From: a virus
Taxonomy: Duplodnaviria; Heunggongvirae; Uroviricota; Caudoviricetes
IMG/VR virus record: IMGVR_UViG_3300048591_000212
DNA: 64,000 nt
Direction: 5' to 3' (one strand)
Part shown: positions 36,018 through 48,301 of the stretch, piece after piece
How the letters are laid out: every line of letters starts with the position of its first letter
How positions within the stretch are numbered: position 1 is the stretch's first letter
The notes under the pieces: generated by a model
Told to the model about the DNA's origin: nothing
Database searches by the model: none
What the model saw: only the letters and a program-made list of their open reading frames with translations
Translations under genes and position numbers: made by a program

Positions 36018-36105
36018 TGGCCTCGGTGGGATTCGAACCCACACTCCCCGGAGGGAAGCGGATTTTCTTACCACTACATTTTTCAATGCCCGCCGCAAAG
36101 CGGTT
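36018..36105 (-). ncRNA. tRNA-like element C (canonical T-arm and 3' acceptor, non-canonical 5' half)
   Basis: GTGGGTTCGAATCCCAC + CGAGGCCA at 3' end; short variable-arm-like hairpin UCCC/GGGA; no 7-nt anticodon loop foldable by eye; paralogous to element at 36646..36735. Confidence 0.4.
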
Positions 36106-36131
36106 TGTGGTCTGGACTTTATCTTTGCCAT

Positions 36132-36161
36132 ATTATAAATAACTTAGGCATCCCCTGTCAA
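36132..36161 (-). promoter_or_regulatory. sigma70-consensus promoter TTGACA-N18-TATAAT upstream of tRNA-like element C
   Basis: Minus strand reads cTTGACAggggatgcctaagttatttATAAT; TSS predicted ~36125. Confidence 0.55.
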
Positions 36162-36343
36162 GTCTCTACACCTTTTAATTAGAAATTCAAAAACATCCAA
36201 TTAACTTGGCTCGGTATTGGCATCGGCTTTACCCGTTAAGCGTTCACCGAATTTAAGGGATTCTACATAAAAGATTTCTCCCTTTGCACTCAAATTAATA
36301 AGTCCGCTGCGTCTGCCAATTACGCCACAAGGCCAAAAACTTT

Positions 36344-36639
36344 TCACCAACCATAGACATCATTTCCAATAATCCTAACAAGCATCATTATTCCACAAAT
36401 CAGAAAACCAACAAAAATGATGGCCTGATGGACGAATATTCCGCCAGCCACGGAAAGCAGTAGAGCAGAAACCAAAGAAACCCGAAACAGGTTTTCGTAT
36501 TTGAAAACGAACGATAACAAAAACCAGATGAAAACTACCATTCCTGCCGTTAACCATGCACTTTCGAATAAGACCGAAACAAGTCCAACTGCTCCAGCCG
36601 AAAACAAAAATGTCATAAGAATTTGATAATATTTACGCA
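36344..36639 (-). CDS. small membrane protein (~98 aa, 3 predicted TM helices)
   Basis: Hydrophobic stretches; track start 36670 trimmed to MRKYYQIL to avoid overlap with tRNA-like element. Confidence 0.45.
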
Positions 36640-36645
36640 TAAGGG

Positions 36646-36735
36646 CCTCCGGTGGGAGTCGAACCCACAAATGACGCAGGTTTCGGAAATGAACTTTCCT
36701 ACGCCCGCCGATTTGCCAGTTTTCTACGGAGACAA
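36646..36735 (-). ncRNA. tRNA-like element A (~90 nt; possible aberrant type II tRNA)
   Basis: Acceptor GTCTCCG/CGGAGGC (one G-U) and T-arm GTGGGTTCGACTCCCAC are good; the 58-nt interior has nested hairpins (CGTAGG...CCTGCG around GGAAA-GTTCA-TTTCC) but no canonical D or anticodon arm; shares GGCGGGC box with element C. Confidence 0.4.
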
Positions 36736-36749
36736 AAATACTTAACTAG

Positions 36750-36822
36750 TAGCCCCGCAGGGATTCGAACCCCGATAAATGCGGTAGAAGCGCATTGCCT
36801 TAATCCGTTAGACGACAGGGCC
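36750..36822 (-). tRNA. tRNA-Arg (anticodon UCU)
   Basis: Acceptor GGCCCTG/CGGGGCT (two G-U), D-stem GTCT/AGGC, anticodon stem ATGCG/CGCAT loop CUUCUAC, T-arm CGGGGTTCGAATCCCTG; no encoded CCA. Confidence 0.75.
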
Positions 36823-39394: not shown

Positions 39395-39484
39395 TGGTCC
39401 TGCGGTGCGGAATCGAACCGCATCCTGGGTCTTATCTGGACTAAGGGCTTATAAGGCCCCCTGCTCTCCATGAGCTACCGCAGG
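39395..39484 (-). tRNA. tRNA with anticodon UAU (Ile-like) and ~21-nt extra arm (90 nt incl. CCA)
   Basis: Acceptor CCTGCGG/CCGCAGG, anticodon stem GGGGC/GCCCU loop CUUAUAA, T-arm TGCGGTTCGATTCCGCA, ACCA end; long variable region is unusual for an Ile tRNA. Confidence 0.6.
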
Positions 39485-44917: not shown

Positions 44918-47900
44918 TTAACGATTCTCCAGATTCTCTTTGATTTGATCAAAAGTAATATAGTTTGTCTCAGAACCAATAAGCTCATCAAAAACTAGAT
45001 CATAAGCACAGTTTTCCAACTCAGAAACAGTAGCATTCTGCTTCACAAAAAGTTCACCATTTTCGTTCCGATATACTGCCGGAATTCCTCGAATCGACTT
45101 TTTGGAATTTTTCTTATCATCAGTAATCGGATCTTTGAAGATTGGCTGAATGGTGTCACCGTTCACTTCGATTGCGGTCGCCTTCATTGCGAAACCAAAG
45201 GTGTCCCGCGTCACATATTCATAAGTAAAGGAACCAATTCCGAAGACCATATTATAGGGACTCAACTTCAATTCATTTACCATTCGATCCAGAATGGCAT
45301 CCGCCCGCTCATAAGTGATGGCATCACCATAAATGACTCCAGCATTATTGATCATCGGAAGCCCGCCATCGACGCCCGGAGTAGTACCAAGAGCCTCAGC
45401 CAGAAGCCGAAGAACTCCCTTACGTTCATTCTCATTGGATGAATTCGGATCACCACAGACAATATTAACTGGATCGCCAGAATTACCAGAAACAACAACA
45501 CAGCCGTTTCGTCTGACCACGATCATGCCAGTATTAACCTGAACGCAATACACCTTTCCGGTATACGAAACAGCGGCTTTCTTAATACTTTGCCCACCAG
45601 AAGTAGACGTTTTGTTTATGTGAATCGTGTATACCTTAGAGAAGTAGGATTTTCTCGTATCGTCATATTCAGAAGAACACGTCCTATAGCCAGCCAAGGT
45701 AGCCAATAATTGAACGGCCTCGGCATTAATCTTAACGGTTGTATCGTATTTTATTCTATTTTCGCTCCTGATACAACTATCCCAATTGGACAATTCATCA
45801 ATAAATTCTTTGGCCCAGACGCCTGAAATGTCATTCAGCATATCAAAAACCCAAGCAAAAGTTTTTTGTGCATCATTTGGAAGAGTAACATAGAATTGGG
45901 TGTTTCTTGGACGAGCGGGTTCAACAGTTTCCTTATACTCGAAACCAGATTCAATCAATAATTTTCTCATGCGATCCACTTTTCGCTGTTTAGTGAAATT
46001 AAATCTCACCTTATTTTTCGGACCAGTCGTGTTGAACGAACCATCCGCCTGAAAAGCAATCAACAATCTTTCTTCCGAAGTAAGAGATTTCGGCTTGCCA
46101 ACCAAAACGCCAGAATGGATCATATCCTTCTCATAGAAGTATTTTATATTTTCTGCCTCTTTTACTTCTACTCCTCCGCGCCCATTTGTTCTGACCATAC
46201 GATGATTTGAAGTAACCAACAAATCGACGTGACTGTCGTTTCTGAAATGAATCATATCTTGTTCGGATTCCAGCTCCGATTCATAATAACGGATAGGCTT
46301 GGTGAAATTGATGGTCCCGTCTTGGTTATACTCTGCTACCAGATCCTCTTCATTTAAGTCCTTAAATAAAACAAAACCGCGATTAGTAAGGATTTCTGTT
46401 TTGTCATCATAACAATCCGGCCTGATCACGATCTTACCATTTCGATTCAAAATTGAATCCTTCAGTCGTGGAATATAATTTGTCAAAACTTTCCACAAAT
46501 CAAACGAATCAGAAACAATTGACACGATGCCTTCGGGGTAAACCTTATTGATCAGTCGGTCAAACATCTCAAATTCATCAACTTCTCCATTCGGAAGATA
46601 CTTGGCAGAACTTGTCATCACGCTATGTTCCGTGTTTCCTGAAATAGCAATGATGCCATTTCTCCGAACAACAATCATCTTCGAAGGAACAGAAACACAA
46701 TATACATAATCGTCATAATCAAACACTTCATTTATTATTCCATGACAGGTAACAACACTTTTATTCAAAGTAATTGTGATGCGGTGCATTGGATTTCTTT
46801 TATAATCTTCCCTCTTGTCAATGTACATGCTGACCTTAGTTTTACAATTACATAAAGTAGCCAAGCATTCAACAACTTCAACATTTAGTTGATTTGTTGA
46901 GGAGTAGATAATATGATTTTTTCTTCTGCTGCCGTCCCAATATTGCAACTCTTCAATAAAAGCTCGGCACCAAGATGACGACACTTCAACGATGTTAACC
47001 CAAGAGAAATCCTTCAGCAATTTTTCGGGTAAATTGATCCAAAAAGAATAATAACCATCTTTATATTTTGTCCAAGTGAAAACACAATCATCAATTTCCG
47101 ATAAAATCGACAACAATCTTTTGAACTTTCTTTCTTTCTTGAAAGAAAAACGAATCGGAAATTTTCCGCTCCTCTCCCCGGTATAATCTTCCGCATGTGA
47201 AGGATATGACCCATCTGCTTGAAAAGCAATCTTCAGCTTCTCCAATGGAGATAATGTTTCTTTCCCACCAATTTTATTTCCAGAAACAACAACTTTATTT
47301 TTTGTGTTATACACAGATTGAGAAGATGCTTCTTTCAGTTCAATTTTCCGGTCTTTATTTAAGAACACCAACTTATGATTTGGAGTAACACAAATATCTA
47401 TATAACGATGACCCTCTTTATAAAACCGATACATTTTTCCTTTATATCGATCCTTATAATATTTCGTCGGAGAAACAAACTCTATATTACCATCGATAGT
47501 ATATTGTGCAACCAGATCAGTTTCCAGTAAATCATCAAATTTCTTAAATCCTGAATTTGTCAACAATTCCGTTTCTTTATCAAAGCAAGCCGGAACCGAC
47601 CCACCACAAGAATATTCCGCACCATAGTATTCAACGGCACCCAAAATCGCCGGAATGGTGTCGGTTCCATTAAAAGAAAGAAGATGACCCATTCCAGACA
47701 TTACGGCATCTTCCAGACCCGACATGCCACGATACGAAAAATCATGTCCCTGCCATTTCGTGAAAGTTAGATCCTTTTCGCCAGAGAGAATCGCCCACTT
47801 CTCAAACAGTCTCTTGTACCGATCTGCGATGGTGGCAGAAGTCATTCCCTTCCAGAGCATATTAGAAATCATCGTTTCCAGATAGTTTGGAAGCCAGAAA

Positions 47901-48301
47901 GCCCACGGCTCAGTGTTATGAATCACAATCGACGGAATTCCGAGAGGTACCAGAGTACCTTCTGGAAGAGAATAAATCCGAATTGGCAATGCGCCATGAT
48001 GCCACAACTGTTCAATATGATCCGTCTTCGGATTAGCCACACCCAGAGTCGCGGAGATGATCTCACGATACTGCCGAAGAATATTTCTCAAGTCTTCAGT
48101 GAAAAATAATTCATCGAACATTTCCTCAATTCGACGAAGCACACACTGAACCCCAAAATGGACAATCTTATTCACGCCATCAATTCGGCTGGAACGGGGC
48201 GTCCAATTCGAGAAAACCGTGGTTACGTTTTCTGGATACTGCTGGACGTGTCCGACCTTATAAAAGTCGATCATGAAAATAGGATTAATTTCTTTCATCA
48301 T
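44918..48301 (-). CDS. nicotinamide phosphoribosyltransferase-like (NAMPT/NadV or Namat) precursor interrupted by two inteins; extein 498 aa
   Basis: N-terminal signature IDFYKVGHVQQYP (NAPRTase family); 1127 aa vs ~490 expected; two insertions beginning with Cys after ...GGSVPA and ...KIVIRPD and ending ...VVRRNG(I/C)xxxSGN followed by Thr or Ser. Confidence 0.8.
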   Translation of the reverse strand: MMKEINPIFMIDFYKVGHVQQYPENVTTVFSNWTPRSSRIDGVNKIVHFGVQCVLRRIEEMFDELFFTEDLRNILRQYREIISATLGVANPKTDHIEQLWHHGALPIRIYSLPEGTLVPLGIPSIVIHNTEPWAFWLPNYLETMISNMLWKGMTSATIADRYKRLFEKWAILSGEKDLTFTKWQGHDFSYRGMSGLEDAVMSGMGHLLSFNGTDTIPAILGAVEYYGAEYSCGGSVPACFDKETELLTNSGFKKFDDLLETDLVAQYTIDGNIEFVSPTKYYKDRYKGKMYRFYKEGHRYIDICVTPNHKLVFLNKDRKIELKEASSQSVYNTKNKVVVSGNKIGGKETLSPLEKLKIAFQADGSYPSHAEDYTGERSGKFPIRFSFKKERKFKRLLSILSEIDDCVFTWTKYKDGYYSFWINLPEKLLKDFSWVNIVEVSSSWCRAFIEELQYWDGSRRKNHIIYSSTNQLNVEVVECLATLCNCKTKVSMYIDKREDYKRNPMHRITITLNKSVVTCHGIINEVFDYDDYVYCVSVPSKMIVVRRNGIIAISGNTEHSVMTSSAKYLPNGEVDEFEMFDRLINKVYPEGIVSIVSDSFDLWKVLTNYIPRLKDSILNRNGKIVIRPDCYDDKTEILTNRGFVLFKDLNEEDLVAEYNQDGTINFTKPIRYYESELESEQDMIHFRNDSHVDLLVTSNHRMVRTNGRGGVEVKEAENIKYFYEKDMIHSGVLVGKPKSLTSEERLLIAFQADGSFNTTGPKNKVRFNFTKQRKVDRMRKLLIESGFEYKETVEPARPRNTQFYVTLPNDAQKTFAWVFDMLNDISGVWAKEFIDELSNWDSCIRSENRIKYDTTVKINAEAVQLLATLAGYRTCSSEYDDTRKSYFSKVYTIHINKTSTSGGQSIKKAAVSYTGKVYCVQVNTGMIVVRRNGCVVVSGNSGDPVNIVCGDPNSSNENERKGVLRLLAEALGTTPGVDGGLPMINNAGVIYGDAITYERADAILDRMVNELKLSPYNMVFGIGSFTYEYVTRDTFGFAMKATAIEVNGDTIQPIFKDPITDDKKNSKKSIRGIPAVYRNENGELFVKQNATVSELENCAYDLVFDELIGSETNYITFDQIKENLENR
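45482..46414 (-). mobile_element. intein 2 (311 aa) with LAGLIDADG-type homing endonuclease domain, paralogous to intein 1
   Basis: Starts CYDDKTEILTNRG, contains LLIAFQADGSF, ends MIVVRRNGCVVVSGN | S. Confidence 0.7.
46634..47587 (-). mobile_element. intein 1 (318 aa) with LAGLIDADG-type homing endonuclease domain
   Basis: Starts CFDKETELLTNSG (Hint block A), contains LKIAFQADGSY (LAGLIDADG-like), ends MIVVRRNGIIAISGN | T. Confidence 0.7.

What the first reader, a model, noticed from the sequence alone, without database searches (positions are those of the whole stretch)
36018..36735. Two paralogous tRNA-like elements with perfect T-arm and acceptor 3' strand but no foldable anticodon arm
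Elements at ~36018..36105 and ~36646..36735 share GTGGGTTCGA(A/C)TCCCAC + CG(G)AGGCC at the 3' end and a GGCGGGC box in the 5' half. Each has nested hairpins (A: CGTAGG...CCTGCG enclosing GGAAA-GTTCA-TTTCC; C: GCGG...CCGC enclosing CATT-GAAA-AATG) in place of a D or anticodon arm. An exhaustive by-eye search for a 5-bp stem with a 7-nt loop found none. Element C has its own textbook promoter (TTGACA-N18-TATAAT). Possibilities are degenerate type II tRNAs, tRNAs needing unusual processing, or a tRNA-mimic regulatory RNA.
Basis: seen in the sequence. Interest (0 to 1): 0.55.

Follow-up and report, generated by a model that had tools for sequence, protein, structure and literature searches.

The report
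Intron-split phage tRNA-Leu plus degenerate copy

Summary
Both elements are real and lie on the minus strand of a deep-branching T4-like phage.

It is not a separate element. It is the last 39 nt of a 233-nt group I intron (36067-36299) plus the 3' exon of tRNA-Leu(UAA). The 5' exon is at 36300-36334. Joining the exons gives a clean 85-nt cloverleaf, and the splice context CUU|a...g|AAAA is the classical one. Its "textbook promoter" lies inside the intron.

The same split gene occurs, unannotated, in Agrobacterium phage Atu_ph07 and in two huge metagenomic phages. A 2014 review stated that no phage tRNA gene was known to carry an intron.

It has a perfect acceptor stem and T arm and a leucine-type D loop. 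A 16-nt hairpin sits in the anticodon loop, position 33 is G, and the D stem is weak. Removing the hairpin in silico gives a tRNA-Leu(UAA) call. It is most likely a non-decoding derivative of a Leu-family tRNA, either a relic or a processing module. No relatives were found, so its function is untested.

The parts
36300..36334 (-). 5' exon of tRNA-Leu(UAA): acceptor 5' strand, D arm, 5' strand of the anticodon stem, and C32 U33 U34
   Evidence: Read directly. Joining it to 36018-36066 gives an ARAGORN tRNA-Leu(taa) of 85 nt at default settings.
36067..36299 (-). Group I intron, 233 nt, no ORF, inserted between U34 and A35 (CUU|a...g|AAAA)
   Evidence: Rfam RF00028 scores 53.1 bits against a gathering score of 50, E=1e-10, over 36093-36309. 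U(-1) forms a U-G wobble in P1 and the last base is G. The three-phage alignment has 26 compensated pairs.
36018..36066 (-). 3' exon of tRNA-Leu(UAA): A35-A38, 3' strand of the anticodon stem, long variable arm, T arm, acceptor 3' strand, discriminator A
36132..36161 (-). Perfect sigma-70-like consensus (TTGACA-18-TATAAT) inside the intron
   Evidence: TTGACA lies in the stretch that aligns to the core consensus of the Rfam model. The -10 box is not conserved in the intron homologues.
36644..36733 (-).
   Evidence: It has a 7-bp acceptor (36733-36727 with 36651-36645), U8, a Leu-type D loop AACUGGCA with only 2 D-stem pairs, and a perfect T arm at 36668-36652. There is no default ARAGORN call and no Rfam tRNA hit.
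36684..36699 (-). 16-nt insertion GGAAAGUUCAUUUCCG (a 5-bp hairpin with loop GUUCA, plus G) inside the anticodon loop of the degenerate element
   Evidence: Deleting exactly these bases gives an ARAGORN tRNA-Leu(taa) call at default settings, with loop CGUAAAA against CUUAAAA in the real gene. The flanking stem GCGGG/CCUGC (36708-36704 with 36680-36676) sits at the canonical anticodon-stem position.
36646..36650 (-). GGAGG within the 3' acceptor strand, 5 nt upstream of the ATG of the next ORF
   Evidence: Read directly. The same arrangement is common downstream of ordinary phage tRNAs.
36344..36640 (-). 98-aa hydrophobic orphan ORF between the degenerate element and the split tRNA-Leu
   Evidence: called as a gene on the JGI contig. 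The only match among 5.8 billion protein clusters is itself, and there is no Pfam hit.
36749..36822 (-). tRNA-Arg(UCU), about 15 nt upstream of the degenerate element
   Evidence: ARAGORN and Rfam at 53.8 bits.

Best explanation
The region is one minus-strand cluster in a T4-like phage, in this order: tRNA-Arg(UCU), a degenerate Leu-family tRNA, a 98-aa ORF, and an intron-split tRNA-Leu(UAA). (1) The stretch 36018-36334 is a working tRNA-Leu(UAA) gene. Its transcript folds into a group I ribozyme that excises 233 nt between U34 and A35 and joins the exons. Ordinary end-processing and CCA addition then give an 84-nt class II tRNA reading UUA/UUG. (2) The stretch 36644-36733 derives from a Leu-family tRNA and can no longer decode. 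A 16-nt hairpin occupies its anticodon loop, U33 is replaced by G, the D stem keeps 2 pairs, and the discriminator is C. Its acceptor/T-arm half and D/T-loop contact bases are intact. It should therefore still fold into an L shape and be cut from the transcript by RNase P and the 3' processing enzymes. Its 3' acceptor strand also provides the GGAGG in front of the next ORF. Shown here: the anatomy, the in-silico splice, the Leu-family affinity, and the failure of tRNA models. Inferred: self-splicing activity, RNase P processing, and loss of decoding. I could not determine whether the second element is a relic or is kept as a processing module.
For: The intron scores above the Rfam gathering score. 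The spliced exons give a clean tRNA-Leu(taa). The junction CUU|a...g|AAAA is identical to the classical tRNA-Leu intron as described by Williams 2020. Homologous split genes occur in LR756501, Atu_ph07 and LR756511, with 26 compensated pairs across three of them. UAA fits the window's tRNA set, in which seven of the eight ARAGORN-called tRNAs (all but Cys-GCA) have U at position 34. For the second element, default ARAGORN and the Rfam tRNA model fail. Deleting 16 nt restores a Leu(taa) call. Of its 40 nearest tRNAs among 932, 25 are tRNA-Leu. It shares 54-57 of 74 positions with class I-shaped tRNA-Leu genes of other phages and 55 with its intron-bearing neighbour. Its central 35 nt resemble the neighbour's intron tail plus anticodon 3' strand more than all but 1 of 2000 shuffles.
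Against: No RNA data exist, so neither splicing nor processing has been observed. For the second element there is no comparative evidence. The only other copy is 99.86% identical with no change in the element, so selection cannot be measured. Its central fold is only modestly better than shuffles (z=-2.2) and competes with an 8-bp alternative of similar energy. In the deletion scan 60 of 875 deletions gave some ARAGORN call, so the Leu(taa) result is suggestive rather than unique. The origin is unresolved between a shrunken intron and a new insertion into a short-arm tRNA-Leu.
Confidence: 0.6

Rival explanations
1. The element at 36644-36733 is a dedicated trans-acting tRNA mimic, a stable non-decoding RNA like T4 species 1 RNA (RNAC). 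Its remodelled anticodon-position arm would bind a protein or act as a decoy for a tRNA-targeting host factor.
For: T4 RNAC is a tRNA-like RNA with a T arm, a closing acceptor-like helix and a 10-bp arm carrying an invariant 6-nt loop at the anticodon position. Its structure is supported by 19 compensated pairs. In T4 it lies just downstream of tRNA-Arg(UCU), as the element does here. The top half of the element is perfect while its bottom half is remodelled.
Against: A covariance model of the RNAC family does not match the element, and the invariant RNAC loop is absent. No relatives were found, so nothing shows that the hairpin is conserved. The lesions (G33, A-A mismatches in the D stem) look like decay rather than design.
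Confidence: 0.15
2. The 16-nt hairpin is a real mini-intron. It would be removed by protein enzymes (an endonuclease plus a phage RNA ligase) to give a class I-shaped tRNA-Leu(UAA).
For: Precise removal gives a 7-nt loop with anticodon UAA. Short-variable-arm tRNA-Leu genes exist in other phages. RlaP, a protein associated with RNA ligases, is encoded 2 kb away, and its homologues sit beside Rnl1/Rnl2-type ligases in T4-like contigs.
Against: The product would have G33 instead of the near-universal U33, a 2-bp D stem and discriminator C. There is no bulge-helix-bulge motif. No bacterial or phage pathway of this kind is known. The one small-intron viral tRNA found in passing (L010) comes from a virus encoding a RING-finger protein, probably a eukaryotic virus.
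Confidence: 0.06
3. The tRNA-like fold at 36644-36733 is a cis-regulator of the 98-aa ORF. It would hide the Shine-Dalgarno sequence in the acceptor helix, or have it removed by tRNA-type 3' processing.
For: GGAGG lies inside the 3' acceptor strand, 5 nt before the ATG.
Against: The same arrangement (T arm, GGAGG in the acceptor, ATG within 4-7 nt) gave more than 120 hits in IMG/VR. Most of these are ordinary tRNAs, and many are followed by ORFs of 50 or more codons. It looks like a by-product of compact phage genomes, not something special to this element.
Confidence: 0.12
4. The intron in tRNA-Leu(UAA) is inactive and that gene is also a pseudogene.
For: The Rfam score is only 3 bits above the gathering score. 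The Rfam model does not detect the homologous introns in the other phages at E<=0.001.
Against: Both exons are flawless. The core helices covary across three phages. U(-1), its wobble pair and the terminal G are all present.
Confidence: 0.05

Closest known systems
Classical group I intron in tRNA-Leu(UAA) of cyanobacteria and plastids (type Leu.3Ug in Williams 2020, bioRxiv 10.1101/2020.01.27.920355)
   Same: The host tRNA, the insertion point (between U34 and A35) and the junction CUU|a...g|AAAA are the same. The intron is small, has no ORF, matches Rfam Intron_gpI, and has the U-G wobble in P1.
   Different: It is encoded by a phage (a T4-like myovirus) rather than a cell or organelle. The 2014 review PMC3984707 stated that all phage introns known then were in protein-coding genes. 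The intron subgroup was not determined here.
Bacteriophage T4 species 1 RNA (RNAC), a small stable RNA of unknown function in the T4 tRNA cluster (PMC3014915, PMC9697503)
   Same: Both are non-decoding tRNA-shaped RNAs in the tRNA cluster of a T4-type phage. Both have a canonical T arm, a closing helix formed by the two ends, and a hairpin without a 7-nt anticodon loop at the anticodon position. In T4 it also lies downstream of tRNA-Arg(UCU).
   Different: There is no detectable sequence or profile similarity. RNAC is 139 nt, with a long arm replacing the D arm, two U-U mismatches in the closing helix and an invariant CGUCAA loop. The element here is 90 nt and clearly derived from tRNA-Leu.
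Short-variable-arm (class I-shaped) tRNA genes with Leu anticodons in other phage contigs (IMG/VR loci L043, L153, L155, L157)
   Same: They share the variable-loop and T-arm block AUUU-GUGGGUUCGA..CCCAC-CG, a Leu-type D loop and Leu anticodons. Identity to the hairpin-deleted element is 53-57 of 74 positions.
   Different: These are intact cloverleaves with U33 and full D stems and without an insertion.
Protein-spliced tRNA introns of archaea and eukaryotes (bulge-helix-bulge type)
   Same: A short insertion extends the anticodon arm.
   Different: The element has no bulge-helix-bulge geometry, the insertion is not at 37/38, and removing it does not give a canonical loop. The host is bacterial in type, judging from the T4-like genes, the Shine-Dalgarno motifs and the sigma-70-like sites.

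Membership tests
Group I intron-interrupted tRNA-Leu(UAA) | Match to the group I intron covariance model at or above the curated threshold | tested here: met
   RF00028 scores 53.1 bits against a gathering score of 50, covering model positions 1-253.
Group I intron-interrupted tRNA-Leu(UAA) | Insertion between U34 and A35, with U before the 5' splice site and G as the last intron base | tested here: met
   The sequence reads ...GGACUU|AUUAAU...GGUAAG|AAAAUCCGC. The same notation is given for the classical intron.
Group I intron-interrupted tRNA-Leu(UAA) | The exons join into a canonical tRNA-Leu cloverleaf with a long variable arm | tested here: met
   ARAGORN at default settings calls tRNA-Leu(taa), 85 nt, with all arms regular.
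Group I intron-interrupted tRNA-Leu(UAA) | P1 helix with a U-G wobble at the splice site, and conserved core helices supported by covariation | tested here: met
   In alignment A2 of three phage genes, U-G is present in all three at columns 35/50, and 26 of 78 pairs are compensated.
Group I intron-interrupted tRNA-Leu(UAA) | Self-splicing activity | not testable with these tools
   This needs an in-vitro splicing assay or transcript reads across the junction.
Canonical tRNA (Rfam RF00005 / ARAGORN), tested for 36644-36733 | 7-bp acceptor stem and 5-bp T stem with a UUCGA-type loop | tested here: met
   GUCUCCG pairs with CGGAGGC (one G-U pair), and the T arm is GUGGG-UUCGACU-CCCAC.
Canonical tRNA (Rfam RF00005 / ARAGORN), tested for 36644-36733 | 5-bp anticodon stem closing a 7-nt loop with U33 | tested here: not met
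   The stem GCGGG/CCUGC closes 23 nt. The best single excision gives CGUAAAA, with G at position 33.
Canonical tRNA (Rfam RF00005 / ARAGORN), tested for 36644-36733 | D stem of 3-4 pairs | tested here: not met
   Only G10-C and A11-U pair, followed by A-A mismatches.
Canonical tRNA (Rfam RF00005 / ARAGORN), tested for 36644-36733 | Model score at threshold | tested here: not met
   There is no RF00005 or tRNA-Sec hit even at E<=10, only a 9.4-bit local T-arm match. ARAGORN gives no call at default settings, with or without introns.
T4 species 1 RNA (RNAC) family | Match to a covariance model built from five Tevenvirinae members | tested here: not met
   Model R1 (140 positions, 46 pairs) gives no match over 36644-36733 at E<=10 with filters off.
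T4 species 1 RNA (RNAC) family | Invariant loop GCGUCAAC on a roughly 10-bp arm next to the T arm | tested here: not met
   The loop here is GUUCA on a 5-bp stem.
tmRNA / tRNA-Sec / other curated tRNA-like RNAs | Match to any Rfam family | tested here: not met
   Searches give nothing above chance. ARAGORN in tmRNA mode finds nothing.
Bulge-helix-bulge (protein-spliced) tRNA intron | Two 3-nt bulges separated by a 4-bp helix, with removal giving a canonical anticodon loop | tested here: not met
   The fold has a symmetric 4x4 internal loop, not staggered bulges. No excision gives U33.

The most novel reading that the evidence does not exclude
The element at 36644-36733 is not junk but a purpose-built, anticodon-less tRNA mimic derived from an intron-bearing or short-arm tRNA-Leu gene. 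It would be a second, independent case, after T4 RNAC, of T4-type phages keeping non-decoding tRNA-shaped RNAs in their tRNA clusters, for example as decoys for host factors that recognise the acceptor/T-arm half of tRNAs. A more extreme version is that its 16-nt hairpin is a protein-spliced mini-intron.
Probability: 0.18. Interest if true: 0.65.

Novelty: new member of a known kind. Interest (0 to 1): 0.4.

Why it matters
Standard tRNA finders miss intron-split tRNA genes. As a result the tRNA-Leu(UAA) of this phage, of the cultured jumbo phage Atu_ph07 and of two published huge phages is absent from their tRNA inventories, and in Atu_ph07 a hypothetical CDS is annotated over part of it. A 2014 review stated that phage group I introns were known only in protein-coding genes, and I found no later report of one in a phage tRNA gene in the searched literature. 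These cases fill that gap and affect analyses of phage codon usage and tRNA complements. The degenerate copy next door is a possible record of how such a gene decays or is reused. It adds a second example to the 50-year-old puzzle of non-decoding tRNA-like RNAs in T4-type tRNA clusters.

Tried and rejected
- **DNA pattern scans for relatives of the degenerate element all failed.**
  - The exact hairpin plus T loop in IMG/VR gave 0 hits.
  - GGAAA-N5-TTTCC plus T loop gave 6 unrelated tRNAs.
  - Conserved loops with free stems gave 1 chance hit.
  - The metagenome scan gave 1 chance hit in a coding region and did not recover the phage itself.
  - The 24-nt T arm plus acceptor in GTDB genomes gave 4 hits: three ordinary tRNAs (two Thr, one Leu-CAA) and one uncalled archaeal tRNA-like sequence that looks intron-split.
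- **Protein searches for related phages found nothing close.**
  - The two flanking ORFs have no relatives in IMG/VR, and the 98-aa ORF matches only itself.
  - RlaP homologues are at most 42% identical and are not syntenic.
  - The baseplate protein gp6 is at most 35% identical to any cultured phage.
  - The only other copy of the locus is 99.86% identical and uninformative.
- **T4 RNAC homology.** A model was built and searched and gave no match.
- **tRNA-Sec, tmRNA and other Rfam families.** None matched.
- **Shine-Dalgarno occlusion as a special regulatory device.** I downgraded this idea after finding the same arrangement behind many ordinary phage tRNAs.
- **Small-intron tRNAs in phages as a class.** The best example (L010) comes from a contig encoding a RING-finger protein, so it is probably a eukaryotic virus. 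ARAGORN's intron mode produced mostly artefacts.
- **A spliced alignment of the element against the whole pre-tRNA-Leu with cheap gaps** was uninformative.
- **Two other T-loop-like matches** (48501 and 32723) are not tRNA-like.

Full report
**Naming.** I call them element 1 (36018-36105) and element 2 (36644-36733). Both are read on the minus strand, where all eight ARAGORN tRNAs of the window also lie.

**Setting.** The window comes from a T4-type myovirus. PHROG matches include the baseplate wedge gp6, the hub/lysozyme gp5 and the tail tube cap. The best gp6 match to any cultured phage is only about 35% identical. The locus order on the minus strand is:
- tRNA-Arg(UCU), 36822-36749
- element 2, 36733-36644
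- a 98-aa hydrophobic orphan ORF, 36640-36344
- a split tRNA-Leu(UAA), 36334-36018
- a sigma-70-like promoter for the next genes

**Element 1 is resolved.**
- Upstream of it I read GGCCUUGUGGCGUAAUUGGCAGACGCAGCGGACUU. This is an acceptor 5' strand, a D arm, the 5' strand of an anticodon stem, and C32 U33 U34.
- Removing 36299-36067 (233 nt) and joining the flanks gives a flawless 85-nt tRNA-Leu(taa) with a long variable arm at ARAGORN's default settings.
- The junction CUU|a...g|AAAA, with U before the 5' site in a U-G wobble and G as the last intron base, is exactly that of the classical tRNA-Leu(UAA) intron.
The "missing" anticodon arm is split by the intron.
- The nested CATT-GAAA-AATG hairpin is a conserved peripheral intron helix with a GAAA loop. 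It covaries in the homologous introns of two other phages.
- The "textbook promoter" TTGACA-N18-TATAAT is real, with 12 of 12 matches at 36161-36132, but it lies inside the intron. TTGACA falls in the stretch aligned to the core consensus of the Rfam model, and the -10 box is absent from the homologues.

**The same split gene occurs in other phages.**
- A distant DNA search of the phage collection matched only the intron region, in LR756501/LR756503 (735 kb), LR756511 (595 kb) and Agrobacterium phage Atu_ph07 (490 kb).
- LR756501 and Atu_ph07 each carry a tRNA-Leu(taa) split at the same position, with introns of 205 and 278 nt.
- LR756511 has the 3' intron core and 3' exon preceded by what reads as an HNH endonuclease ORF.
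- None of these is annotated. In Atu_ph07 a hypothetical CDS overlaps the 3' exon.
- An alignment of three of the genes has 78 predicted pairs, 26 of them compensated.
- Rfam's model misses these homologues at E<=0.001.
- The 2014 review of bacterial group I introns states that all phage introns observed to date are in protein-coding genes, despite the many phage tRNA genes. The huge-phage paper does not mention introns, and my literature searches found no report of an intron in a phage tRNA gene. I cannot exclude reports outside the held library.

**Element 2: anatomy.** I number bases so that base 1 is 36733.
- Intact features:
  - a 7-bp acceptor (1-7 with 83-89)
  - U8
  - a D loop AACUGGCA of the tRNA-Leu type, containing the GG that contacts the T loop
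  - a perfect T arm (66-82)
- Defects:
  - The D stem has only two pairs.
  - The discriminator is C.
  - Between bases 26 and 65 there is no 5-bp stem with a 7-nt loop.
- Default ARAGORN, ARAGORN with introns, its tmRNA mode, and the Rfam tRNA, tRNA-Sec and tmRNA models all fail. Only relaxed ARAGORN gives implausible calls.
- With the acceptor and T arm fixed, two folds of similar energy compete.
  - In one, GCGGG/CCUGC sits at the canonical anticodon-stem position. A 4x4 internal loop (CGUA/GAAA) follows, then GGAAA-GUUCA-UUUCC.
  - The other is an 8-bp stem with a 17-nt loop.
- The central fold is only modestly better than shuffles (z=-2.2; whole element z=-1.8).

**What element 2 is.**
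- I ran an exhaustive scan of 875 internal deletions. Removing bases 35-50 (GGAAAGUUCAUUUCCG, 36699-36684) gives a default ARAGORN call of tRNA-Leu(taa). The resulting loop is CGUAAAA, one base different (U33 to G) from the CUUAAAA of the real gene. In total 60 deletions gave some call, so this result is suggestive rather than unique.
- Independent support comes from similarity. Among 932 distinct tRNAs in all loci held, 25 of the 40 nearest to the hairpin-deleted element are tRNA-Leu, against 11% overall.
- It shares 55 of 74 positions with its intron-bearing neighbour. It shares 53-57 with a set of class I-shaped (short variable arm) tRNA-Leu genes from unrelated phage contigs that carry the same AUUU-GUGGGUUCGA..CCCAC-CG block.
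- Its central 35 nt also resemble the neighbour's intron tail plus the anticodon 3' strand (shared CGGCGGGC; 1 of 2000 shuffles score as well).
- Two origins remain open:
  - a copy of the intron-bearing gene whose ribozyme core was deleted and whose variable arm was lost
  - a short-arm tRNA-Leu that acquired a hairpin insertion
- Either way it is a Leu-family tRNA that should not decode. G33, a 23-nt "loop" and a 2-bp D stem are each incompatible with normal function.

**Function of element 2.**
- The acceptor/T-arm half is intact. This is the part recognised by RNase P, the 3' processing enzymes and the CCA-adding enzyme (established knowledge). I therefore infer that the element is still excised from the transcript like a tRNA.
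- GGAGG within its 3' acceptor strand lies 5 nt before the ATG of the orphan ORF.
- I tested whether that overlap is special, and it is not. Most hits were ordinary tRNAs, and many were followed by ORFs of 50 or more codons.
- The closest known functional analogue is T4 species 1 RNA (RNAC), whose role is still unknown. I showed that RNAC is tRNA-shaped, with a T arm, a closing helix, and a 10-bp arm with an invariant loop. Nineteen compensated pairs across five Tevenvirinae support this structure, and no Rfam family covers it.
- A covariance model of RNAC does not match element 2. The resemblance is therefore one of kind, not of family.

**Limits.**
- No informative relatives of element 2 exist in any collection I could reach. 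This covers, plus one 99.86% identical contig with no change in the element.
- Conservation, covariation and selection on the hairpin therefore cannot be assessed.
- The lesions cluster in the bottom half, but not significantly so by my estimate (about 0.1 by chance).
- No expression data are available.

**Verdict.**
- Element 1 is a new member of a well-known kind in an under-reported place, with practical consequences for annotation.
- Element 2 is most likely a non-decoding Leu-tRNA derivative of uncertain use.
- Overall interest is moderate.

Noticed in passing
window 39395-39484 (-); also L077 3356-3447 and L107 (IMG/VR): A 90-nt tRNA-Ile(UAU) with a roughly 19-nt variable region and an encoded CCA. 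ARAGORN calls it, but the Rfam tRNA model does not reach its gathering score. Similar 88-92-nt tRNA-Ile(tat) genes occur in two unrelated IMG/VR contigs. A long variable arm is unusual for tRNA-Ile.
   Followed up: partly
L043 4548-4624, L153, L155, L157 (IMG/VR contigs of 63-253 kb): Phage tRNA genes with Leu anticodons (UAA, UAG, CAA) are only 73-77 nt long, with a 5-nt variable loop instead of the long arm expected of bacterial tRNA-Leu.
   Followed up: partly
window 44918-48301 (-): A 1127-aa nicotinamide/nicotinate phosphoribosyltransferase homologue appears to be interrupted by an intein with a LAGLIDADG-like domain, on weak Pfam hits. This would be a second self-splicing or mobile element in the same window.
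   Followed up: no
window 36132-36161 (-): A 12-of-12 sigma-70 consensus lies inside the group I intron. If active it would start a transcript in the middle of the ribozyme. It is not conserved in the homologous introns.
   Followed up: partly
L029 695-1056 (NC_042013.1 about 112890-113251, minus strand): Agrobacterium phage Atu_ph07 has an unannotated tRNA-Leu(UAA) split by a 278-nt intron. The hypothetical CDS FDI40_gp154 is annotated over its 3' part.
   Followed up: yes
L030 (LR756511.1 408468-410028): The homologous tRNA-Leu intron in this 595-kb phage carries what reads as an HNH endonuclease ORF, judged by eye from a CPNCH-type motif. The intron family would then include a potentially mobile member.
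   Followed up: no
L088 around 6972 (-) (IMGVR_UViG_3300010429_000642): Another stretch has a closed 7-bp acceptor, a perfect T arm and an encoded CCA but no recognisable D or anticodon arms. It is followed directly by a 75-codon ORF.
   Followed up: no
IMG/VR loci L031-L110: In many phage contigs the 3' acceptor strand of an ordinary tRNA contains GGAGG and is followed within 4-7 nt by the ATG of an ORF. tRNA 3' ends may commonly double as ribosome-binding sites.
   Followed up: partly
L019 1409-1547 (T4 rnaC) and homologues L020-L023: T4 species 1 RNA has a well-supported tRNA-like consensus structure, with 46 pairs of which 19 are compensated and an invariant CGUCAA loop. Rfam has no family for it.
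   Followed up: yes
L014 12050-12446 and L017 11190-11581: T4-like metagenomic contigs encoding RlaP next to Rnl1- and Rnl2-type RNA ligases also carry a permuted (two-piece type) tmRNA gene.
   Followed up: no
L010 11048-11152 (-) (IMGVR_UViG_3300032270_001537): A tRNA-Arg(UCU) has a 29-nt intron at position 37/38. The contig encodes a RING-finger protein, so it is probably a eukaryotic virus with an ordinary eukaryote-type tRNA intron.
   Followed up: yes
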